DNA of 64,000 bases from Saprospiraceae bacterium (GCA_016715965.1 JADJXG010000001.1:1527252-1591251); one strand, 5' to 3'. Shown: positions 56,360 to 64,000, numbered from the stretch's first letter. The notes: a model not told the origin generated them from the sequence alone. Numbers and translations are program-made.

Positions 56360-56671
56360 ATGAAAAAAGTTATTTTGATTTCAGGTCTTTTAATGTTTGG
56401 TATTGCAAACATCCTCAACGCACAGGAATCCAGGGATGCAATGGCTTATGAAAGACAAAAGGCAGGTCGGGATTATGAAAGGGGCAGATTTTCCAAAGCT
56501 GAGATTAGAGAGATGAAAAGAGATCATCGGAAGCTCAGAGCCTACAAACGAGCAGCCAAAGCGGATGGTTATATCTCAAGAAGAGAAGCCAATCAGTTAA
56601 GAAAAATGGAGAACAGAATTTATCACAAACAACGCTTTGCTAGCAAAAAGAGACACAGAAGCTGTTTATAA
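56360..56671 (+). CDS. small secreted, highly basic hypothetical protein
   Basis: Signal peptide MKKVILISGLLMFGIANILNAQ, then a K/R/E-rich helical region of 80 aa. A clear terminator follows. Confidence 0.55.
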   Translation: MKKVILISGLLMFGIANILNAQESRDAMAYERQKAGRDYERGRFSKAEIREMKRDHRKLRAYKRAAKADGYISRREANQLRKMENRIYHKQRFASKKRHRSCL

Positions 56672-56922: not shown

Positions 56923-58368
56923 CTAAAAATTTTCTTCAATATTTCTTTTTTTTGATTCTCTATAACTCACATTATTGTCCGATCTGAATTCAATCCATTT
57001 TTTACATTGTGACGAACCACATTTGCATTCAAAAGCTTCTGATTCATTGTTCAAAAACTCTGAATAATCCAAAGTAAGTTCTTCCCCTTTGGAAATTTCT
57101 TTGCTTGCGATGACATTCAGTCCGGAATATAAGGTATTGGGATCGCAACTATGATTCTGAGGTGCCCATTCGGTGGGGTTTATGTCCCAAAGACAATAGA
57201 CTTCCTTACTGAGTGGATATGCATATTGTCTAAAAATTAATTTTTCTTTTTCATTCCAGTTGTTATCCACATGGCTTTTGGTAACTATTCTCTGGGCTCT
57301 TTCTTCGCCTTTGAAAATAACATCTCCTTTGCGAAATGACTTTAGTGCATATATACCAAATCCAGAAATGGCATTACCTCTCATTTCATAGCATTTCTTT
57401 TTTGATTGATGGCGTTGGATTCCTTCTTCGACGATGGCTTTCAAAAATTGATCTTGACCAAAACCACTGATCTTCAAAATATGATCAGCAGAACCCTCAA
57501 ATCCATCGGGGTAGAAAACCGAACAAGTAAAATTAACTTCCAAAAAATATATTTCACCTTTTGGGTTAAGCCTAAAATCCATCCTGGCATATCCTACCCC
57601 ACTGAATGCTTCAAATATTTTACAGGCAGCTTGTTTTAAACGTTTGGTCAGATCTATGTCAGAACAAGCCTGGTTGGCATCTGAATGCAATTCCGAAGTT
57701 TTAAGGGCATAAGTTTTAAAAGAATATCCACTTGGAAATTTATACTCTATTGGGTGGAGGCTCATACATTTTTCAGGACCATTTGGGGTTGAAATCACCA
57801 ATACTGTAAATTCTCTCCCTTCAATAAATTCCTCCACCAGAAGTTTCGGATATTCTTTTAGCAAATCCATCGCCTTGCTGTAAAGTTGATCTTTGGTTTT
57901 GACCAACGAATTCTGGTCAATCCCCAACGAATCTCCGGCTTTAATTGGTTTGACAAAAAGAGGGAATTTAAGGGCATCGATATTTGGATTTTCGACAGAA
58001 TCCAAATCGAGAATGGTATAAGCAGGAGTTTGGATACCTTCGCAATAGGCAATGTATTTCATGAGATCTTTTGGAGGATCGTACAATTCAAGGTTTGGTC
58101 CGGTGTATGGAAGGTTCAATTGTTCGAGCGAATAAATCACATCAATGGAAGGTATGTCCCATTCCAGATATCCCTCACACAGATTGACATAGATGTCAAA
58201 ATTTTGTAAGGATAGATTCCTAAGCTGTTTGTACACAGAAAGCTTGTTGAGAAACTCATGATGGAAACTGGCTTCAGGCCACCACTTGGAAAGATCCCTT
58301 GGTGGATCATAGTGTCTGTAGTCTAAAACAGATTGACCATAATCAGCTTGTAAAATACAAATTTTCAT
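56923..58368 (-). CDS. fusion protein: D-Ala-D-Ala-ligase-like ATP-grasp domain + C-terminal SET/post-SET methyltransferase domain
   Basis: ATP-grasp core: FPLFVKPIKAGDSLGI, EEFIEGREFTVLV, GYARMDFRLNPKGEIYFLEVNF. SET region (aa about 325-460, nt 56989-57396): GFGIYALKSFRKGDVI, NHSCDPN (57136-57156), GEELTLDY, and post-SET CKCGSSQC. Confidence 0.8.
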   Translation of the reverse strand: MKICILQADYGQSVLDYRHYDPPRDLSKWWPEASFHHEFLNKLSVYKQLRNLSLQNFDIYVNLCEGYLEWDIPSIDVIYSLEQLNLPYTGPNLELYDPPKDLMKYIAYCEGIQTPAYTILDLDSVENPNIDALKFPLFVKPIKAGDSLGIDQNSLVKTKDQLYSKAMDLLKEYPKLLVEEFIEGREFTVLVISTPNGPEKCMSLHPIEYKFPSGYSFKTYALKTSELHSDANQACSDIDLTKRLKQAACKIFEAFSGVGYARMDFRLNPKGEIYFLEVNFTCSVFYPDGFEGSADHILKISGFGQDQFLKAIVEEGIQRHQSKKKCYEMRGNAISGFGIYALKSFRKGDVIFKGEERAQRIVTKSHVDNNWNEKEKLIFRQYAYPLSKEVYCLWDINPTEWAPQNHSCDPNTLYSGLNVIASKEISKGEELTLDYSEFLNNESEAFECKCGSSQCKKWIEFRSDNNVSYRESKKRNIEENF

Positions 58369-59462
58369 TGGGTTCTTCTTCTTAATGCGTCTTCAATGAT
58401 TTCCAAAATCATTTGAGAAAAAGTATGTCCGCTGAATCTAAGGATAGCGCCGATGCTCGTAAAATTTTCATCCTCACTTAATCCGCACTGAGCGTTGGCT
58501 TCCAACACATACAACTCACCGGTTTTTTCTTTTTGTCGAATATCAATTCTGGTGTAGCCAGTACCTTTCAAACAATGGTAAACATCCAAGCTGAGTTTAT
58601 GGAGTGGATCGATCATTGCTGATTCGCAAGCAGAATAATTAAACAGAAATTCTCCTCCCTCTAATTCATCTTCTTCTTCATAAGTTTCCCACAATCTGTC
58701 AAATGATAAAATTCTTTCTGTGGCGGGGATATTTTGGCTAAACAATCTTTCGACCGGAGGATAGATTTTCAAGAACTTTGGTTGGTGAGCGGATCCTGTC
58801 AACAGGGTGGTAAATTCGCGTCCATCGATAAACTCCTCTGCTAAAAATCCATCAATGTCGAGTTTCCATCCCTTGTACCCGTTTTTCAATGATTCATAAA
58901 CTTTCAACGCATCTTCGACTGTGTAAACCACATTCTTTATTCCCAAACCCATGCTTCCTCCGGATACAGCAGGCTTGATAATCAAGGGTGCATTGAGCTT
59001 ATAAAAAATTTCCTGAAATTGGTCTTGATGACCCGTCAAAATCTCCCATCTGGGAGTTTTAATCCCTGAAAGATCAAATAACTTTTTCATGGGAATTTTG
59101 GAAGTGGTAATCTCATAGAAGAATTCTCCGGCTCCAGTATAAACCATACCCATTTGCTCCATTTCCTGCACAAATTTTAAACCAGGAGCTCCATTCACTT
59201 CATCTCCATCGCAAAGGTTTATGATTAATGGATTTTTGGGCAGAGACTCTTGCTTTATTAATTCCAATTGTTCTATGTAATTGGATTGGGTAATGTATCT
59301 CCATTTCCAATCCAAACCCAATTCCATAAAACACTTTTTGTATTCAGCATGACTTTGCTCAAAATCATAATAGTATTCCAAATAGTCATCATGATGAGGT
59401 ATAGAAGGAACAAGTACCCAGATCAAATATTCTTGTCTAATTTCAGCTATCGAGGTATTCAC
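58365..59462 (-). CDS. D-Ala-D-Ala-ligase-like ATP-grasp ligase
   Basis: PLIIKPAVSGGSMGLGI, EEFIDGREFTTLL, GYTRIDIRQKEKTGELYVLEANAQCG. The start is uncertain: GTG 59462 or TTG 59426. The six-frame ORF extends to 59636 but overlaps the SET gene. The stop overlaps the next ATG (ATGA). Confidence 0.75.
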   Translation of the reverse strand: MNTSIAEIRQEYLIWVLVPSIPHHDDYLEYYYDFEQSHAEYKKCFMELGLDWKWRYITQSNYIEQLELIKQESLPKNPLIINLCDGDEVNGAPGLKFVQEMEQMGMVYTGAGEFFYEITTSKIPMKKLFDLSGIKTPRWEILTGHQDQFQEIFYKLNAPLIIKPAVSGGSMGLGIKNVVYTVEDALKVYESLKNGYKGWKLDIDGFLAEEFIDGREFTTLLTGSAHQPKFLKIYPPVERLFSQNIPATERILSFDRLWETYEEEDELEGGEFLFNYSACESAMIDPLHKLSLDVYHCLKGTGYTRIDIRQKEKTGELYVLEANAQCGLSEDENFTSIGAILRFSGHTFSQMILEIIEDALRRRTQ

Positions 59463-59955
59463 TTTTTTTCCTGAGGATATGATTACTGATTTTGTATCGA
59501 AGCAATTTTGATAGATCAATGCTATAAGCACCTTTGATAGATTGAAAACAATCTGCCGAATGGCAAAAACAATCAAACGCCTGATCCATCTTCCATTCGG
59601 TGGACGGATAAAAATAACAAAGTTGTTCTCCTGCATTAATATCAGTCAGGGCAATCAATTGGAAACTGTCAGGATCTGGGAAACAATTGGGAGAACAGGA
59701 ATGGTTAAGGTATTGAAGAAATTCTGGTTGAAGTTCAATGTGTTGCTGGTCGTTGATTTGGATGGTGAGATAAGTAGGAGAATCCAAAATCACCGAAGCA
59801 CCGAATTTTTGGAGTACCTCCCCTTCTTTACAAAATCGCTTTGCAAACAATCCTTTTTGTTGATTGCTGGGGTTGATTCTTAGTTCTATGCTTTTGTTAC
59901 ATTGTGTTAAAGGAACCCATTCTCTGGGATTCACTTCAACGATTGGATCAGGCAT
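59443..59955 (-). CDS. stand-alone SET-domain protein with post-SET Cys motif
   Basis: 170 aa with KGLFAKRFCKEGEVL, NHSCSPN, GEQLCYFY and CFCHSADC. ATG at 59955. Confidence 0.75.
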   Translation of the reverse strand: MPDPIVEVNPREWVPLTQCNKSIELRINPSNQQKGLFAKRFCKEGEVLQKFGASVILDSPTYLTIQINDQQHIELQPEFLQYLNHSCSPNCFPDPDSFQLIALTDINAGEQLCYFYPSTEWKMDQAFDCFCHSADCFQSIKGAYSIDLSKLLRYKISNHILRKKSEYLDS

Positions 59956-60130
59956 CCGTTTTTTTTTGTAAAGATGATATTATTCCTTAATATGGATCAA
60001 TAATTATCACCCAAACTTTATTCTTATCAATGAAGGATTTTTATGTCATTGATAACCAGAATATTTAATCTGCTCTTCAGCTTGAACATTTCACCTGAAG
60101 GAGCTTAACTTTAGTTATTCTAAGCTTGGA

Positions 60131-61150
60131 TTATTTCAGGCCCAACAAAAACCCAATGGTAAAATTGGCATCCCAATCAAAGATAAAATTTTTGCAGCCG
60201 GTTTCATCTGCTATCGCTTTGTAAATATTGATACCAGCCTTTTGCTTTTCTCCGCTCGTAGAATATTCCGAAGGAGATTTAAGTACAGTGTACCTTTCTT
60301 TGCCATTTCGCACTTGTTTGGCCAATTCAAAAGGAATTCCGCCAATGATAAAACAATAATCTCTATGACTGACCGGGACTTGTCCCACAACTTTGGAAAC
60401 ATCGGAGGCAACCTGGCTATCTGATAGTCCTTTTTGAAAATATTTGGATCCATGGGATTCCAATGCGGTCATCTTACCAGCTAACTTAAAGGCAATTTTG
60501 GTATTGCCGGAGCCCATGTCCACCATAAATGCTTTGTCTTCAAAACTACTTGGCAAGGCACATTGGAAACCATAGGTTCCTTCCTGGGCGGGTGTTACTT
60601 CATTGACATAATAACCTATCTCCTTTAATCCTTTGGCTATTCTCACCACCTTTTCTTCGTTTTTCGCACCGGAACTCACTACAAAGTGTATGTCCTTGCC
60701 GGCCACCCCATAATCAAGCATTCCCCGGATATAATTTTTCAGACCGCTGCGAATATCGTCATCTGTAACCATTTTTTCATGCACTAAACTGGATCCAAAC
60801 TCTGCTTTTTCCAATTTCCATCTTTTCTGATCATCAATCAAAACAATAAAGGAGTTAAATCCTGCAGCACCAAGTTCAACAACACCCCTGAGTTTTCCAT
60901 TTACAGGAACCGGGGCCGTGTAGTTAAAAGAAGTGCTTGTGGCAGTGCCTGACGCCTGTTCTGTACCATTTGGATTGCTATTCTCGGCGCTTGCTTCTGT
61001 ATTCGGACTTTCAGTACCGGATGGTGCATTAGAATTGGATTGAACTCCAAATTTTTCCTGAAGCGTCGGTTCATATTTCTTATAGACAAAAAACAAACCA
61101 CCCAAGATGATGGCAATGATCAGGATTTTTGAAAAAGCAGTTAGTTTCAT
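60131..61150 (-). CDS. membrane-anchored ASKHA-fold phosphatase-like protein (Ppx/GppA- or NTPDase-like)
   Basis: N-terminal TM helix (MKLTAFSKILIIAIILGGLFFVY), a low-complexity S/T/N/P linker, and ASKHA phosphate motifs VVELGAAGFNSF and MVDMGSGNTKIAF. Confidence 0.5.
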   Translation of the reverse strand: MKLTAFSKILIIAIILGGLFFVYKKYEPTLQEKFGVQSNSNAPSGTESPNTEASAENSNPNGTEQASGTATSTSFNYTAPVPVNGKLRGVVELGAAGFNSFIVLIDDQKRWKLEKAEFGSSLVHEKMVTDDDIRSGLKNYIRGMLDYGVAGKDIHFVVSSGAKNEEKVVRIAKGLKEIGYYVNEVTPAQEGTYGFQCALPSSFEDKAFMVDMGSGNTKIAFKLAGKMTALESHGSKYFQKGLSDSQVASDVSKVVGQVPVSHRDYCFIIGGIPFELAKQVRNGKERYTVLKSPSEYSTSGEKQKAGINIYKAIADETGCKNFIFDWDANFTIGFLLGLK

Positions 61151-61298
61151 ATTAACAAGTTTTGTGTGTTTGGCAGAAGAATTGAACAAATATCCATGCG
61201 AAAATACAACTGGTCGCCAAATTGATGAAAGAATTGTTTGTTATTTAAGGTTAAGAATCTGTAAATCAATAAGATTTATTTAGACCTAAATGGCGTAA

Positions 61299-62516: not shown

Positions 62517-64000
62517 TTAATTGATTACAGAGCCATCGGTATTATAAAGTCCATGATTGGGAATGGAATTTCGGATATTTTTTAATTCCTCAAGTAGCAT
62601 CAACTTGTTTCTATTTTCTTTGCTTCTTCTAAATGCCTCAGATTCTGATATCACCCTTAAATTTCTTAAGTTTGATTGCAAGGCCTCTTCCGTGATAAGC
62701 TGTATCCATTTTTTTAAGTCTGTTCTCTGATCAATAAGCATTGGTTCGAGATATTCGCTTTTAATGGTCATGGCGTATTGATTAAAACGGATTGTTTTTA
62801 AAGAATCTTTAAACGCAATGGGTTTTTCTTGAGCTTTTAATGGATTGTATTCGTTGATTGGAATTTGGAGGTTTGGATTGGGTAAATCCTTTGACTCCAA
62901 ATGAAGAACTATTTCTGTGCGATCTCTTTGGTCAATCTCATTTATATTTTTTGTTGGTTTGGCTTTTATCTTACTTTTTACTTTTTTTCTTTTTATCACA
63001 TCACTTTTAAGAGATTCACCAGAATTATCGGCGCACTCGACTGAAGAAAAGCCCAACAAATGATTGGTTTGAGTCTGTAGGAAATGAGCAGTAAACTTTT
63101 GTGAATCCATAAATACAGAAACCATTGCTAGAAAAGCACTGAGAAATATAAATCCCGGAATTTTATAAGAATAGTCCATTGGTACCGGTAATCTCAACAA
63201 ATTTTTAACTCTTTTGAGAAGTTGATTCTTCTCTGTGGCAAAAGCAACAATGCGATGATGATTGTTAAGCGAAGGATCTTCTCCAAGCTTCAGGATCAAT
63301 GAGGCATAGGCATGTAGATCTGGTAAAAAGCTGACCGCTTGTTCGTCTGCACAAAGCTCACGGTGAAATTTAACTTTCGAACTTAAGTATTGAACACCCG
63401 GATTAAAGAAAAATACCAGATCGCAAAAGTGACAGATCAGATTAAAAACATGATCACCGGCTTTAAGATGGGACAATTCATGTGCTAGAATACACTCAGC
63501 CTCCTGATACGAAAGTTTGTTGACCCAGCAAGTGGGGACAACCACCATTGGTTTGAGTACACCATAGACAAAGGCAGACTGAACTTTGTTGGAATGCAAG
63601 AAAATAATTTTGACTGGAATCGCCATTTTTGATTTCAAGCTTTCAAAAATTTGGTACCAGTGTTCCGGAAAATGATGACCCCCATTGTTTTTAATTTCAG
63701 AGATATATCGATAGGATCTAATGTACCTCATTCCGAAATAGGCAAAACCGATCAGCCAGATTCCAAATGCCAATACACCAAAATTGGAATTTGAGAAATC
63801 CCCGGAAATGGCAATGAAAGGTAAAATGTTCAGGATTTCTAAATATTCCAGAACAAATGATGCAGACACGCAAAAAACAAAAAAGACCAACACGCTCTTG
63901 TAAAGTGCATTTCTTGCGTGATTGCTTTGGATTAATTTTGATTTTTCAATCAGCATAATCACGCCAGTGAGAAATCCGGCTATCCACAAGGAATGAAGCA
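62517..64000 (-). CDS. BlaR1-like M56-family membrane metalloprotease/signal transducer (5' end at or beyond window edge)
   Basis: TM helices and zinc motif HELSH in ILAHELSHLKAGDH (63468-63482). The frame is open to base 64000. The C-terminal 200 aa lack any PBP/SxxK sensor motif. Confidence 0.75.
   Translation of the reverse strand, partial: LHSLWIAGFLTGVIMLIEKSKLIQSNHARNALYKSVLVFFVFCVSASFVLEYLEILNILPFIAISGDFSNSNFGVLAFGIWLIGFAYFGMRYIRSYRYISEIKNNGGHHFPEHWYQIFESLKSKMAIPVKIIFLHSNKVQSAFVYGVLKPMVVVPTCWVNKLSYQEAECILAHELSHLKAGDHVFNLICHFCDLVFFFNPGVQYLSSKVKFHRELCADEQAVSFLPDLHAYASLILKLGEDPSLNNHHRIVAFATEKNQLLKRVKNLLRLPVPMDYSYKIPGFIFLSAFLAMVSVFMDSQKFTAHFLQTQTNHLLGFSSVECADNSGESLKSDVIKRKKVKSKIKAKPTKNINEIDQRDRTEIVLHLESKDLPNPNLQIPINEYNPLKAQEKPIAFKDSLKTIRFNQYAMTIKSEYLEPMLIDQRTDLKKWIQLITEEALQSNLRNLRVISESEAFRRSKENRNKLMLLEELKNIRNSIPNHGLYNTDGSVIN

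What the first reader, a model, noticed from the sequence alone, without database searches (positions are those of the whole stretch)
56923..59955. Operon of a SET protein, an ATP-grasp ligase and an ATP-grasp::SET fusion: candidate undescribed ligation-plus-methylation system
Three co-oriented, overlapping genes on the minus strand encode (1) a 170-aa stand-alone SET domain, (2) a Ddl-like ATP-grasp amide ligase, and (3) a second Ddl-like ATP-grasp fused to a second SET domain. Both SET domains carry the full motif set of eukaryotic lysine methyltransferases. Those motifs are GxG-like KGLFA/GFGIYA, NHSC(S/D)PN, ELxxDY-like GEQLCYFY/GEELTLDY, and post-SET CxCxxxxC. SET domains are uncommon in free-living bacteria. 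ATP-grasp enzymes of the Ddl/RimK/L-amino-acid-ligase type make peptide or isopeptide bonds. Two of each in one translationally coupled unit implies a dedicated pathway. It may build and methylate a small peptide or metabolite, or add and methylate amino-acid tails on a protein target. No substrate gene, transporter or regulator is obvious in the operon. I know of no characterised bacterial system with this composition, but I cannot check the literature here.
Basis: partly seen in the sequence, partly recalled or inferred. Interest (0 to 1): 0.88.

Follow-up and report, generated by a model that had tools for sequence, protein, structure and literature searches.

The report
Conserved ligase-plus-SET methyltransferase operon, function unknown
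Three tightly packed genes encode two D-Ala-D-Ala-ligase-like enzymes and two different SET methyltransferases that travel together in hundreds of bacterial species and are fused into one protein in other bacteria, an amoeba and a green alga; they probably build and methylate a small amino-acid-derived compound that nobody has yet identified.

Summary
Window 56923-59955 (minus strand) carries three packed genes:
- a 170-aa SET protein;
- a Ddl-like ATP-grasp (true start probably GTG 59462, 365 aa);
- a 481-aa ATP-grasp::SET fusion.

Pfam supports every domain, and the ATP/Mg residues are intact in both ligases.

The gene order is conserved in Chitinophagaceae and Saprospiraceae species genomes. 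The second ligase is adjacent in 76/76 loci with room, and the small SET is present in 70/74. The four modules are also fused in many combinations elsewhere, including one chain with all four, an amoeba gene with an intron, and a Mesostigma protein.

The main correction concerns the stand-alone SET. Its closest characterised relative is not a histone lysine methyltransferase but BurB, a SET enzyme that S-methylates free methionine. The fused SET is more canonical.

The only recurrent neighbours are ABC-exporter components. No precursor peptide, riboswitch or defence-system match was found, and no paper in the searchable library describes the system.

Best reading (about 0.45): a pathway that makes a methylated, probably cationic, amide-linked small molecule that is often exported. 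The main rival is protein tagging plus lysine methylation. This is a new variant of known enzyme kinds and needs experiments.

The parts
60012..60020 (-). Possible Bacteroidota -7 promoter element (TAAAGTTTG, matching TAnnTTTG), 56 nt upstream of the SET170 ATG, inside the 175-nt gap after the upstream gene
   Evidence: Read directly from the sequence. The sigma-70 scan also marks 60030..60003. That TAnnTTTG is the Bacteroidota consensus is my own knowledge. Weak evidence, not tested.
59443..59955 (-). SET170: stand-alone 170-aa SET methyltransferase of the BurB-like subfamily. Motifs: NHSCSPN, catalytic-position Tyr116, PSTEWKMDQAFDCFCHSADC.
   Evidence: Pfam SET E 5.8e-11. The family profile hits BurB (PDB 9l4t) at E 1.1e-20. 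AF2 pLDDT is 93.2. Foldseek top hits are BurB at E 2e-10 and TM 0.65-0.70. BLASTP to BurB gives 43% identity over 80 aa, E 9e-18.
58365..59462 (-). AG2: Ddl-superfamily ATP-grasp ligase, 365 aa from GTG 59462. The ORF extension to ATG 59636 is probably not translated.
   Evidence: Pfam Dala_Dala_lig_C E 9.5e-12. Best PDB matches are Ddl enzymes at E 3.5e-17. K122, K163, E209, E216, R305, D307, E321 and N323 are invariant in 52 homologues. The start is inferred from homologues.
57394..58368 (-). ATP-grasp (Ddl-like) half of the fusion protein, residues 1-325, with all three ATP-grasp subdomains
   Evidence: Pfam Dala_Dala_lig_C E 8.3e-23. AF2 pLDDT 88.7, pTM 0.82. Foldseek top 50 are all Ddl or D-Ala:D-lactate/D-Ser ligases, E about 1e-19, TM (target-normalised) 0.7-0.8. 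The ATP/Mg residues of E. coli DdlB are kept; the D-Ala triad is not.
56923..57393 (-). SET half of the fusion protein, residues 326-481, plus the stop codon. Canonical SET with GFGIYA, NHSCDPN, ELTLDY (Tyr435), a post-SET C448/C450/C455 cluster with C408, and a C-terminal helix.
   Evidence: Pfam SET E 4.8e-11. The profile matches KMT2A/MLL SET domains at E about 2e-11 over residues 327-459. Invariant residues come from 118 homologues.

Best explanation
The operon encodes a dedicated pathway that joins amino-acid-type building blocks by amide bonds and methylates them. The result would be a small, probably cationic (quaternary-ammonium or sulfonium) peptide-like metabolite.

**Shown here**
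- Both ATP-grasp proteins belong to the D-Ala-D-Ala-ligase superfamily.
- Both keep every ATP/Mg/acyl-phosphate residue.
- Both have replaced the D-Ala-specific residues.
- The small SET protein is a BurB-type enzyme.
- The fused SET is a canonical lysine-methyltransferase-type domain with a complete SAM site, catalytic-position tyrosine and zinc post-SET.
- The four modules are linked by conserved synteny and by repeated gene fusion.
- ABC-exporter components are the only recurrent neighbours.

**Inferred**
- Each ligase activates a carboxylate as an acyl-phosphate and couples it to an amine.
- The BurB-like SET methylates a free amino acid, or the free amino-acid end of the product, on S or N.
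- The SET fused to the ligase methylates a lysine-like alkylamine of that ligase's substrate or product. Fusion would keep the two steps together.
- In many lineages the product is exported.

The identity of the building blocks is not known.
For: **Ligases resemble small-molecule enzymes**
- Domain assignments and intact catalytic residues.
- The closest solved relatives of both ligases are small-molecule ligases (Ddl, VanA, weakly BacD), not protein-tagging ATP-grasps.
- The RimK family model scores 18.6 bits against a cut-off of 143.

**SET170 resembles a free-amino-acid methyltransferase**
- It is nearest to BurB, which acts on free L-Met (PMC12542666).

**The modules belong together**
- Synteny: 76/76 and 70/74 loci, with tiny gaps.
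- Fusions found: AG2+AG-SET (P0004, P0046); AG-SET+BurB-like SET in 8 of 150 cluster representatives; BurB-like SET+AG; and AG-SET-SET-AG in one chain (P0348).

**Export link**
- A PF13748 transmembrane-domain protein lies downstream in 51/77 Chitinophagaceae loci, and inside the operon in L037.
- An ABC ATPase lies inside the cassette in L059 and L067.
- Full ABC exporters lie next to divergent relatives in 14 loci.

**Amine or sulfonium hint**
- Pyruvoyl AdoMet-decarboxylase-family genes are adjacent in two unrelated contexts.

**Exclusions**
- No conserved small ORF that could encode a precursor peptide.
Against: - No product is known, and nothing in the sequence fixes the substrates.
- The fused SET looks like an ordinary protein lysine methyltransferase (MLL-type, E about 2e-11).
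- The fusion protein is unusually conserved: 73% mean column identity in 118 homologues, about 59% identity across families. That would also fit a conserved macromolecular target.
- No other biosynthetic genes accompany the Bacteroidota cassette.
- Many divergent relatives have the AG-SET gene alone.
- One relative fuses this ligase type to a clostripain-family peptidase (P0468), which hints at peptide or protein substrates.
- The AdoMet_dc link rests on two contexts only and is absent from the Bacteroidota loci.
- The ABC link is absent from this window.
Confidence: 0.45

Rival explanations
1. Protein-tagging system. The ligases add one or more amino acids to a conserved cellular protein (at the C-terminus or on Glu/Asp side chains, as RimK and tubulin-tyrosine-ligase-type enzymes do). 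The SET domains methylate lysines of that target or of the added residues.
For: - The fused SET is a canonical KMT-type domain with post-SET zinc cysteines.
- Sequence conservation is very high, and the genomic surroundings are housekeeping genes with no biosynthetic cluster.
- AG-SET occurs as a lone gene in many bacteria and in eukaryotes.
- A relative is fused to a C11 peptidase.
- Eukaryotic TTLL12 also combines SET-like and ATP-grasp (TTL) domains (PMC3520985).
Against: - Both ligases are Ddl-clade, with the full N-terminal domain of small-molecule ligases. RimK models score far below threshold and no TTL model was hit.
- SET170 is closest to an enzyme that acts on a free amino acid.
- Recurrent ABC exporters are hard to explain for an intracellular protein tag.
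- No candidate target gene is conserved next to the cassette.
Confidence: 0.25
2. Sulfonium sub-case of the main reading. SET170 is a true methionine S-methyltransferase like BurB. The ligases build an S-methylmethionine-containing (or decarboxylated, DMSP-amine-containing) conjugate.
For: - BurB is the nearest characterised relative by sequence and by fold.
- The motif Y-x-[ST]-T-E...M-x-Q-x-F-x-C-x-C is shared.
- AdoMet_dc-family decarboxylases act on a sulfonium amino acid. They lie next to the system in L091 and inside the L093 operon.
Against: - Identity to BurB is only about 30% overall (43% over 80 residues).
- Several BurB SAM-contact side chains are not kept (H72->L63, R133->D124, H138->F130, by the alignment).
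- BurB binds Met through main-chain atoms, so specificity cannot be read from the sequence (PMC12542666).
- None of the downstream enzymes that follow BurB in Burkholderia was seen next to the cassette in the window or in the 80 Bacteroidota loci. This comes from gene clustering and Pfam of the commonest neighbours, not from a direct search with BurI/BurD/BurE sequences.
- Carriers are mostly freshwater, soil and sludge taxa, not known sulfonium producers.
Confidence: 0.15
3. Cell-envelope modification. The Ddl-like ligases add amino acids to a peptidoglycan stem, a lipid or a surface polymer. The SETs methylate its free amines, and the membrane ABC component flips or exports the intermediate.
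For: - Ddl-superfamily ligases.
- murA lies 3.3 kb downstream in the window.
- A membrane PF13748 protein lies in or next to the operon in Chitinophagaceae.
Against: - The murA and parC neighbours are not conserved in other carriers.
- The system occurs in an amoeba and a green alga, which lack peptidoglycan.
- None of the three proteins has a signal peptide or membrane segment evident in the translations.
Confidence: 0.08
4. Ribosomal peptide (RiPP) maturation, or an anti-phage defence system, or a chance adjacency of inactive domains.
For: ATP-grasp enzymes do mature some ribosomal peptides (own knowledge). ABC exporters are common in such clusters.
Against: - No conserved small ORF lies within 2-2.5 kb in 80 loci.
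- There are no PADLOC matches.
- Catalytic residues are invariant, and synteny and fusions are pervasive.
Confidence: 0.04

Closest known systems
BurB (Burkholderia thailandensis) and its homologue MSMT (Streptomyces mobaraensis): SET-domain L-methionine S-methyltransferases (PDB 9l4t, 9l4v; PMC12542666, PMC7496086)
   Same: - Stand-alone SET protein of about 170 aa.
- Best sequence match (profile E 1e-20) and best structural match (Foldseek E 2e-10) of SET170.
- The aromatic Tyr124 equivalent (Tyr116) is kept.
- Shared STE...M.Q.F.C.C tail and post-SET cysteines.
   Different: - Only about 30% identity overall.
- Several SAM-contact side chains differ.
- The genomic partners are ATP-grasp ligases, not the decarboxylase, aminotransferase and dehydrogenase that follow BurB.
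- The substrate is untested.
D-alanine-D-alanine ligase / VanA family, and more distantly L-amino-acid ligases such as BacD
   Same: - Same three-subdomain ATP-grasp fold.
- Same ATP, Mg and acyl-phosphate residues: K97, K144, E180, E187, K215, R255, D257, E270 and N272 of E. coli DdlB all have equivalents.
   Different: - Scores are far below the NCBIfam Ddl cut-offs (84-94 bits against 243-246).
- The D-Ala-binding triad is not kept: Ser150 becomes Asp146 in AG-SET and Gly in AG2, and Tyr216 has no counterpart.
- The family has its own signature, NFTCSVFY..G.EGSAD.
- One copy is fused to a SET domain.
Ngg, the fused acetyltransferase/ATP-grasp enzyme that makes the osmolyte dipeptide N-acetylglutaminylglutamine amide (own knowledge, not checked here)
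   Same: A dipeptide-forming ATP-grasp ligase fused to the enzyme that decorates the product. It makes a small modified peptide outside ribosomal and NRPS routes.
   Different: The tailoring domain there is a GNAT acetyltransferase, not a SET methyltransferase. The ATP-grasp clade is different. There is no sequence relationship beyond the superfamily.
TTLL12 (eukaryotic protein with SET-like and tubulin-tyrosine-ligase-like domains; PMC3520985)
   Same: It is the only described protein I found in the literature that combines a SET-type and an ATP-grasp-type domain in one chain.
   Different: - The domain order is reversed (SET-like, then TTL).
- The ATP-grasp is of the TTL clade, not the Ddl clade.
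- Per the abstract, TTLL12 catalyses neither histone methylation nor tubulin tyrosination, whereas here all catalytic residues are conserved.
RimK / LysX-type protein-modifying ATP-grasp ligases
   Same: ATP-grasp amide ligation. This is the model for the protein-tagging rival.
   Different: The RimK family model scores 18.6 bits against a cut-off of 143. All structural neighbours are Ddl enzymes, not RimK.

Membership tests
SET-domain (class V) SAM-dependent methyltransferases | Match to Pfam SET (PF00856) above the gathering score | tested here: met
   43.2 and 43.4 bits against 22.4
SET-domain (class V) SAM-dependent methyltransferases | NHSxxPN SAM-binding motif, Tyr at the catalytic position of the ELxF/YDY motif, and post-SET Cys cluster | tested here: met
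   SET170 has NHSCSPN, Y116 and C129/C131/C136 with C87. The fusion has NHSCDPN, Y435 and C448/C450/C455 with C408. These residues are invariant in 87 and 118 homologues.
SET-domain (class V) SAM-dependent methyltransferases | SET fold | tested here: met
   SET170 model has pLDDT 93 and all top Foldseek hits are SET domains. The fused SET profile hits KMT2A-D SET structures at E about 1e-11.
SET-domain (class V) SAM-dependent methyltransferases | Methyl transfer from SAM | not testable with these tools
   Needs an enzyme assay
BurB/MSMT methionine S-methyltransferases | Closer in sequence and structure to BurB than to lysine methyltransferases | tested here: met
   Profile E 1.1e-20 against 3e-9 or weaker for histone methyltransferases. 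Foldseek E 2e-10 against 1e-6. BLASTP 43% over 80 aa.
BurB/MSMT methionine S-methyltransferases | Conservation of the BurB side chains that contact SAM (R42, H72, H93, R133, H138) | tested here: not met
   By the alignment, H93 is kept as H85. H72 becomes L63, R133 becomes D124 and H138 becomes F130. The R42 loop is not alignable with confidence.
BurB/MSMT methionine S-methyltransferases | Genomic association with the downstream DMSP enzymes (SMM decarboxylase, aminotransferase, dehydrogenase) | tested here: not met
   No such conserved neighbour appears in the window or in the 80 Bacteroidota loci, by gene clustering plus Pfam of the commonest neighbours; there was no direct search with BurI/BurD/BurE. 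Only an unrelated pyruvoyl AdoMet_dc-family gene lies nearby, in two divergent contexts.
BurB/MSMT methionine S-methyltransferases | L-Met to S-methylmethionine activity | not testable with these tools
   Needs an assay. I therefore do not file SET170 as a BurB orthologue, only as BurB-like.
D-alanine-D-alanine ligase (Ddl) proper | Score above the NCBIfam/TIGRFAM Ddl cut-offs | tested here: not met
   Best scores are 83.9 bits (AG2) and 94.1 bits (AG-SET) against cut-offs of 243-246.
D-alanine-D-alanine ligase (Ddl) proper | D-Ala-binding residues (Glu15-Ser150-Tyr216 triad of E. coli DdlB) | tested here: not met
   Ser150 becomes Asp146, and Tyr216 falls in a gap of the family profile.
ATP-grasp superfamily, Ddl-like clade | ATP-grasp fold with conserved ATP-binding lysines, hinge glutamates and the Mg-binding E-x-N | tested here: met
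RimK / TTL protein-tagging ATP-grasps | Match to the RimK or TTL family models | tested here: not met
   RimK_fam scores 18.6 bits against 143.4. No TTL hit in Pfam.
RiPP (graspetide-type) ATP-grasp systems | Adjacent conserved precursor-peptide gene | tested here: not met
   No small ORF is conserved in more than 7 of 80 loci. Those few look like conserved non-coding DNA or tRNA translations.
Known anti-phage defence systems | Match to a PADLOC model | tested here: not met
   0 families for all three proteins

The most novel reading that the evidence does not exclude
A four-module enzyme set (two Ddl-type ligases, one BurB-type SET and one lysine-methyltransferase-type SET) forms a previously unrecognised and very widespread route to an exported sulfonium- or quaternary-ammonium-bearing pseudopeptide made from methionine and/or a basic amino acid. 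It would be shared by most Chitinophagaceae and Saprospiraceae, by scattered other bacteria, and by some amoebae and streptophyte algae. This would be the first pathway in which SET-domain enzymes work as small-molecule tailoring enzymes together with ATP-grasp ligases. It would also greatly widen the known range of BurB-type enzymes, which current reviews describe as confined to Burkholderia.
Probability: 0.3. Interest if true: 0.82.

Novelty: new variant of a known kind. Interest (0 to 1): 0.7.

Why it matters
- **New role for SET domains.** They are textbook chromatin enzymes. BurB (function 2020, structure 2025) showed that one can methylate a free amino acid. Here a BurB-like SET and a canonical SET are hard-wired to amide ligases in more than 500 species genomes, and fused to them across bacteria and eukaryotes. 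That points to an unknown and evidently important metabolite or modification.
- **Ecological reach.** The carriers are abundant freshwater, soil and activated-sludge Bacteroidota.
- **Payoff if a small molecule.** The result would be a new compound class and a new biosynthetic logic: ligase plus SET.
- **Payoff if a sulfonium.** It would touch the sulfur-cycle literature.
- **Payoff if a protein tag.** It would be a bacterial counterpart of tubulin/histone-type 'ligate and methylate' codes.
- **Testable now.** Cultured carriers exist, so the question can be addressed directly.

Tried and rejected
1. **One model of both ligases plus SET.** I tried to fold the natural AG2+AG-SET fusion P0004. 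MAFFT aligned the AG2 homologues onto the paralogous second ATP-grasp (22-27% identity). That alignment was unusable, so I folded the window's AG-SET and SET170 instead. AG2 has no model.
2. **Active-site geometry.** I could not measure the distance or orientation between the ligase and SET active sites, nor inspect the pockets.
3. **Riboswitch or leader upstream.** Rfam found nothing credible; the two hits are far below gathering scores.
4. **Defence system.** No PADLOC hits.
5. **Precursor peptide.** No conserved small ORF.
6. **Polyamine or sulfonium link through AdoMet_dc.** It is real in two divergent contexts. It is absent from the window, from the 80 Bacteroidota loci and from the 80 metagenome loci, so I keep it only as a hint.
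7. **The PF13748 membrane gene.** It has no homologue anywhere in this 64-kb window.
8. **Literature.** Six searches found no description of a bacterial SET/ATP-grasp system. Two Aravind-group surveys might mention the association (Iyer et al. 2009, Mol Biosyst, on amidoligases; Aravind et al. 2011, on protein methylation). Neither is held in the library, so a prior purely computational mention cannot be excluded.
9. **Pfam on all 150 cluster representatives at once.** I replaced it with local HMMs of the four modules.


Full report
**1. What is in the window**

Three minus-strand ORFs fill 56923-59955.
- SET170 runs 59955..59443 (170 aa).
- A Ddl-like ATP-grasp, here AG2, follows it.
- A 481-aa ATP-grasp::SET fusion, here AG-SET, runs 58368..56923.

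Pfam supports all domains. SET scores E 5.8e-11 and 4.8e-11. Dala_Dala_lig_C scores E 9.5e-12 and 8.3e-23. NCBIfam gives only far sub-threshold Ddl hits (84-94 bits against cut-offs of 243-246) and nothing for SET170.

The mechanical ORF for AG2 starts at ATG 59636, deep inside the SET gene. Homologues align only from the IWVLVPS strand onwards. The nearest full-length homologue, P0122 (365 aa), begins with V exactly where the window has GTG 59462. I take 59462..58365 as the gene.
- It overlaps the SET170 stop by 20 nt.
- Its stop overlaps the AG-SET start (ATGA).
- A public gene call of 320 aa (P0121) is truncated at the other extreme.

A 175-nt gap separates the cassette from the upstream gene. 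It contains TAAAGTTTG (60020..60012), which matches the Bacteroidota TAnnTTTG promoter element (that consensus is my own knowledge). G+C content is the same as in the flanks. The window is from a Saprospiraceae MAG (P0001 and P0241 are 100% identical; 3.68-Mb contig).

**2. More than chance**

Almost all are Chitinophagaceae, Saprospiraceae and unclassified Bacteroidota. They include the cultured Lacibacter luteus, L. cauensis and Ferruginibacter paludis.

In the 80 best loci:
- AG2 lies directly upstream of AG-SET in 76 of 76 loci with room.
- SET170 is present in 70 of 74 loci with room.
- The order is SET170, AG2, AG-SET in all but one.
- Median gaps are 9 nt and 38 nt, and six loci have the same 4-nt overlap.

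Flanking genes of the window (the 352-aa upstream protein, parC, murA) are shared only with other Saprospiraceae. The three genes are therefore the conserved unit. Median identity to the window falls from 59% (AG-SET) to 50% (AG2) to 45% (SET170).

**3. Fusions tie the four modules together**

An all-against-all HMMER search of 1.84 billion cluster representatives gave 221 clusters at E below 1e-30. I classified the best 150 with local HMMs of the four modules:

| Architecture | Count |
|---|---|
| AG-SET | 60, plus 9 with split hits |
| AG-SET followed by a SET170-type domain | 8 |
| SET170-type followed by AG | 2 |
| AG2 followed by AG | 1 |
| AG-SET, SET170-type, then an AG2-like ligase (P0348, 953 aa) | 1 |
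| Four SET170-type repeats followed by AG-SET (Mesostigma viride, 1415 aa) | 1 |

The sequences show the diagnostic FFYPSTEW.M...FDC.CG tail of SET170 at the C-terminus of P0338 and P0335. In Bacteroidota, P0004 and P0046 fuse AG2 to AG-SET. A Streptomyces genome has AG-SET followed by an overlapping 157-aa SET170-type gene and no AG2.

The 501-aa AG-SET of Vermamoeba vermiformis lies on 650-kb contigs among BTB, Kelch and COPII genes. A gap between the ligase and SET parts reads as an intron. Many divergent bacterial relatives carry AG-SET alone on their contig. AG-SET is thus the core, and AG2 and the small SET are lineage-specific additions.

**4. What the parts are**

*Ligases.* AG-SET folds with confidence (pLDDT 88.7, pTM 0.82). 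The 50 best PDB matches of the model are all Ddl or D-Ala:D-lactate/D-Ser ligases (E about 1e-19, target-normalised TM 0.7-0.8). Profile searches say the same for both ligases, with BacD and PurD only marginal for AG2.

Against E. coli DdlB the ATP, Mg and acyl-phosphate residues are kept:

| E. coli DdlB | AG-SET |
|---|---|
| K97 | K100 |
| K144 | K140 |
| hinge glutamates | E179/E180 |
| E187 | E186 |
| K215 | K223 |
| R255 | R262 |
| D257 | D264 |
| E270 | E277 |
| N272 | N279 |

These residues are invariant in 118 homologues. The equivalents in AG2 are invariant in 52. The D-Ala triad is not kept: Ser150 becomes Asp146 and Tyr216 has no counterpart. Both proteins therefore look like active amide ligases with a substrate other than D-Ala.

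*SET domains.* The fused SET is canonical. Its profile matches KMT2A-D SET domains at about 2e-11 over residues 327-459.

SET170 is different. Its family profile hits BurB (PDB 9l4t/9l4v) at E 1.1e-20, and the next hits (histone methyltransferases) start at 3e-9. Its model (pLDDT 93.2) has BurB as its three top Foldseek hits (E 2e-10 to 1e-9, TM 0.65-0.70), against about 1e-6 for histone enzymes. By BLASTP it is closer to BurB (43% over 80 aa, E 9e-18) than to the SET of its own operon partner (34% over 58 aa, E 9e-8).

BurB is a 172-aa stand-alone SET enzyme. It S-methylates free L-methionine to S-methylmethionine and holds the amino acid by main-chain hydrogen bonds in a pocket that SAM binding closes (PMC12542666). 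A 2026 review calls it known only from B. thailandensis (PMC13360808).

Several BurB SAM-contact side chains are not kept in SET170. I therefore call it BurB-like, not a BurB orthologue.

**5. Neighbourhood clues**

In Chitinophagaceae a PF13748 (ABC_membrane_3) transmembrane protein lies about 100 nt downstream on the same strand in 51 of 77 loci. In L037 it sits between AG-SET and a relocated SET170. In L059 and L067 an ABC ATPase gene lies between AG2 and AG-SET.

I fetched 80 metagenome loci of the divergent P0338-type relatives. The only recurrent neighbour there is a full ABC exporter (ABC_membrane plus ABC_tran, some with a cNMP-binding domain). It appears in 14 loci, out of roughly 40-46 with at least 1.5 kb of flank, on either side and either strand.

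Two unrelated contexts place a pyruvoyl AdoMet-decarboxylase-family gene next to the system:
- L091 has it adjacent on the opposite strand.
- L093 has an operon of AG-SET, an AlaDh/PNT-type dehydrogenase, a BurB-like SET, AdoMet_dc and DUF3326, preceded by an ABC exporter.

This link does not recur in the other 160 loci. I found no riboswitch, no conserved small ORF and no defence-system match. The window itself has none of these accessory genes.

**6. Most likely mechanism**

I favour a small-molecule pathway (confidence about 0.45). Section 4 shows that both ligases are competent and Ddl-like. The remaining steps are inferred:
- The two ligases form one or two amide bonds between amino-acid-type units.
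- The BurB-like SET methylates a free amino acid or the free end of the product.
- The SET fused to the ligase methylates a lysine-like amine of that ligase's substrate or product.
- The product is often exported.

Arguments for this reading:
- The ligases fall in the Ddl clade, not the RimK/TTL clade.
- SET170 has BurB affinity.
- Exporters recur as neighbours.
- There is no precursor or target gene.

Arguments against:
- The fused SET is of the KMT type.
- Sequence conservation is very high.
- AG-SET occurs as a lone gene in many bacteria and in eukaryotes.
- One relative fuses this ligase to a C11 peptidase (P0468).

These last points keep a protein 'ligate and methylate' system alive as the main rival (about 0.25). 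A sulfonium version, with SET170 as a true Met S-methyltransferase, is a sub-case (about 0.15). Cell-envelope modification is unlikely given the eukaryotic members.

**7. Comparison with known systems, and novelty**

The closest characterised relatives are BurB/MSMT for SET170 and Ddl/VanA for the ligases. The closest analogies in logic are the following:
- Ngg, a fused tailoring enzyme and ATP-grasp that makes a modified dipeptide (own knowledge).
- TTLL12, with SET-like and TTL domains, reported inactive for histone methylation and tubulin tyrosination (PMC3520985).

The system is a member of none of these. The membership table gives the tests.

Six literature searches found no description of it. 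NCBI names the proteins only generically. Two Aravind-group surveys that might mention the association could not be read.

I rate it a new variant of known kinds: standard chemistries in an uncharacterised, widely conserved combination. Interest is 0.7. The finding is real, broad, cross-kingdom and directly testable in cultured strains. Its product is unknown, and a prior in-silico mention cannot be ruled out.

Noticed in passing
window 58365-59636 (minus): The middle gene's start is ambiguous in public gene calls. The longest ORF (423 aa, ATG 59636) runs 194 nt into the SET gene. One public call (P0121) is only 320 aa. Homologues support GTG 59462 (365 aa).
   Followed up: yes
L003-L079 (e.g. 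L036:9520-10449); L037:9622-10560: A PF13748 (ABC_membrane_3) membrane protein of about 300 aa, with no ATPase domain, follows the cassette in 51/77 Chitinophagaceae loci. In L037 it sits between AG-SET and SET170. It has no homologue in the 64-kb window.
   Followed up: partly
L093:8001-12572 and L091:8001-10848: In divergent relatives, AdoMet-decarboxylase-family genes (one a tandem double domain of 266 aa) lie next to the system. In L093 an AlaDh/PNT-like dehydrogenase and a DUF3326 protein do too. This may be a variant pathway with a decarboxylation step.
   Followed up: partly
L084/L085 (JGI 3300061462, contigs of about 650 kb): An amoebozoan-type eukaryotic genome (BTB, Kelch, COPII and reticulon genes) carries AG-SET split by an apparent intron. 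It matches a Vermamoeba vermiformis transcript. A Mesostigma viride protein of 1415 aa has four SET170-type repeats before AG-SET.
   Followed up: partly
L036 (labelled Brevundimonas vancanneytii MAG) and L070 (labelled Gemmatimonadota MAG): Contigs binned to non-Bacteroidota MAGs carry a cassette 57-59% identical to the window. In L036 it has the typical Chitinophagaceae gene order. L036 is probably mis-binned. L070 has high-G+C-looking flanks and could be a real transfer.
   Followed up: no
window 60131-61189 (minus): The upstream 352-aa protein has an N-terminal membrane segment, a low-complexity S/N/T-rich linker and a weak Ppx/GppA-type match (E 0.0025, below cut-off). It is conserved at 63-65% identity directly upstream of the cassette in the two other Saprospiraceae loci only.
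   Followed up: partly
window 56360-56671 (plus): A convergent 103-aa ORF with a signal-peptide-like start and a very basic, repetitive K/R-rich body (weak DUF533 match). It is not found in any related locus.
   Followed up: no
window 62517-63989 (minus): A 490-aa membrane protein with an HELSHLKAGDH zinc-peptidase motif. My reading from memory is a BlaR1/M56-like sensor peptidase; I did not run it against Pfam.
   Followed up: no
L031:6068-6136, L040:6139-6207, L050:1956-2024, L052, L055, L076: A short stretch about 1.9 kb upstream of the fusion gene is conserved at the DNA level in 7 Chitinophagaceae loci. It shows up as similar spurious small ORFs on both strands and may be a non-coding RNA or regulatory element.
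   Followed up: no
P0468 (824 aa): A relative of the AG-SET ligase domain (40% identity over residues 59-324) is fused to a clostripain-family (C11) peptidase instead of a SET domain.
   Followed up: no
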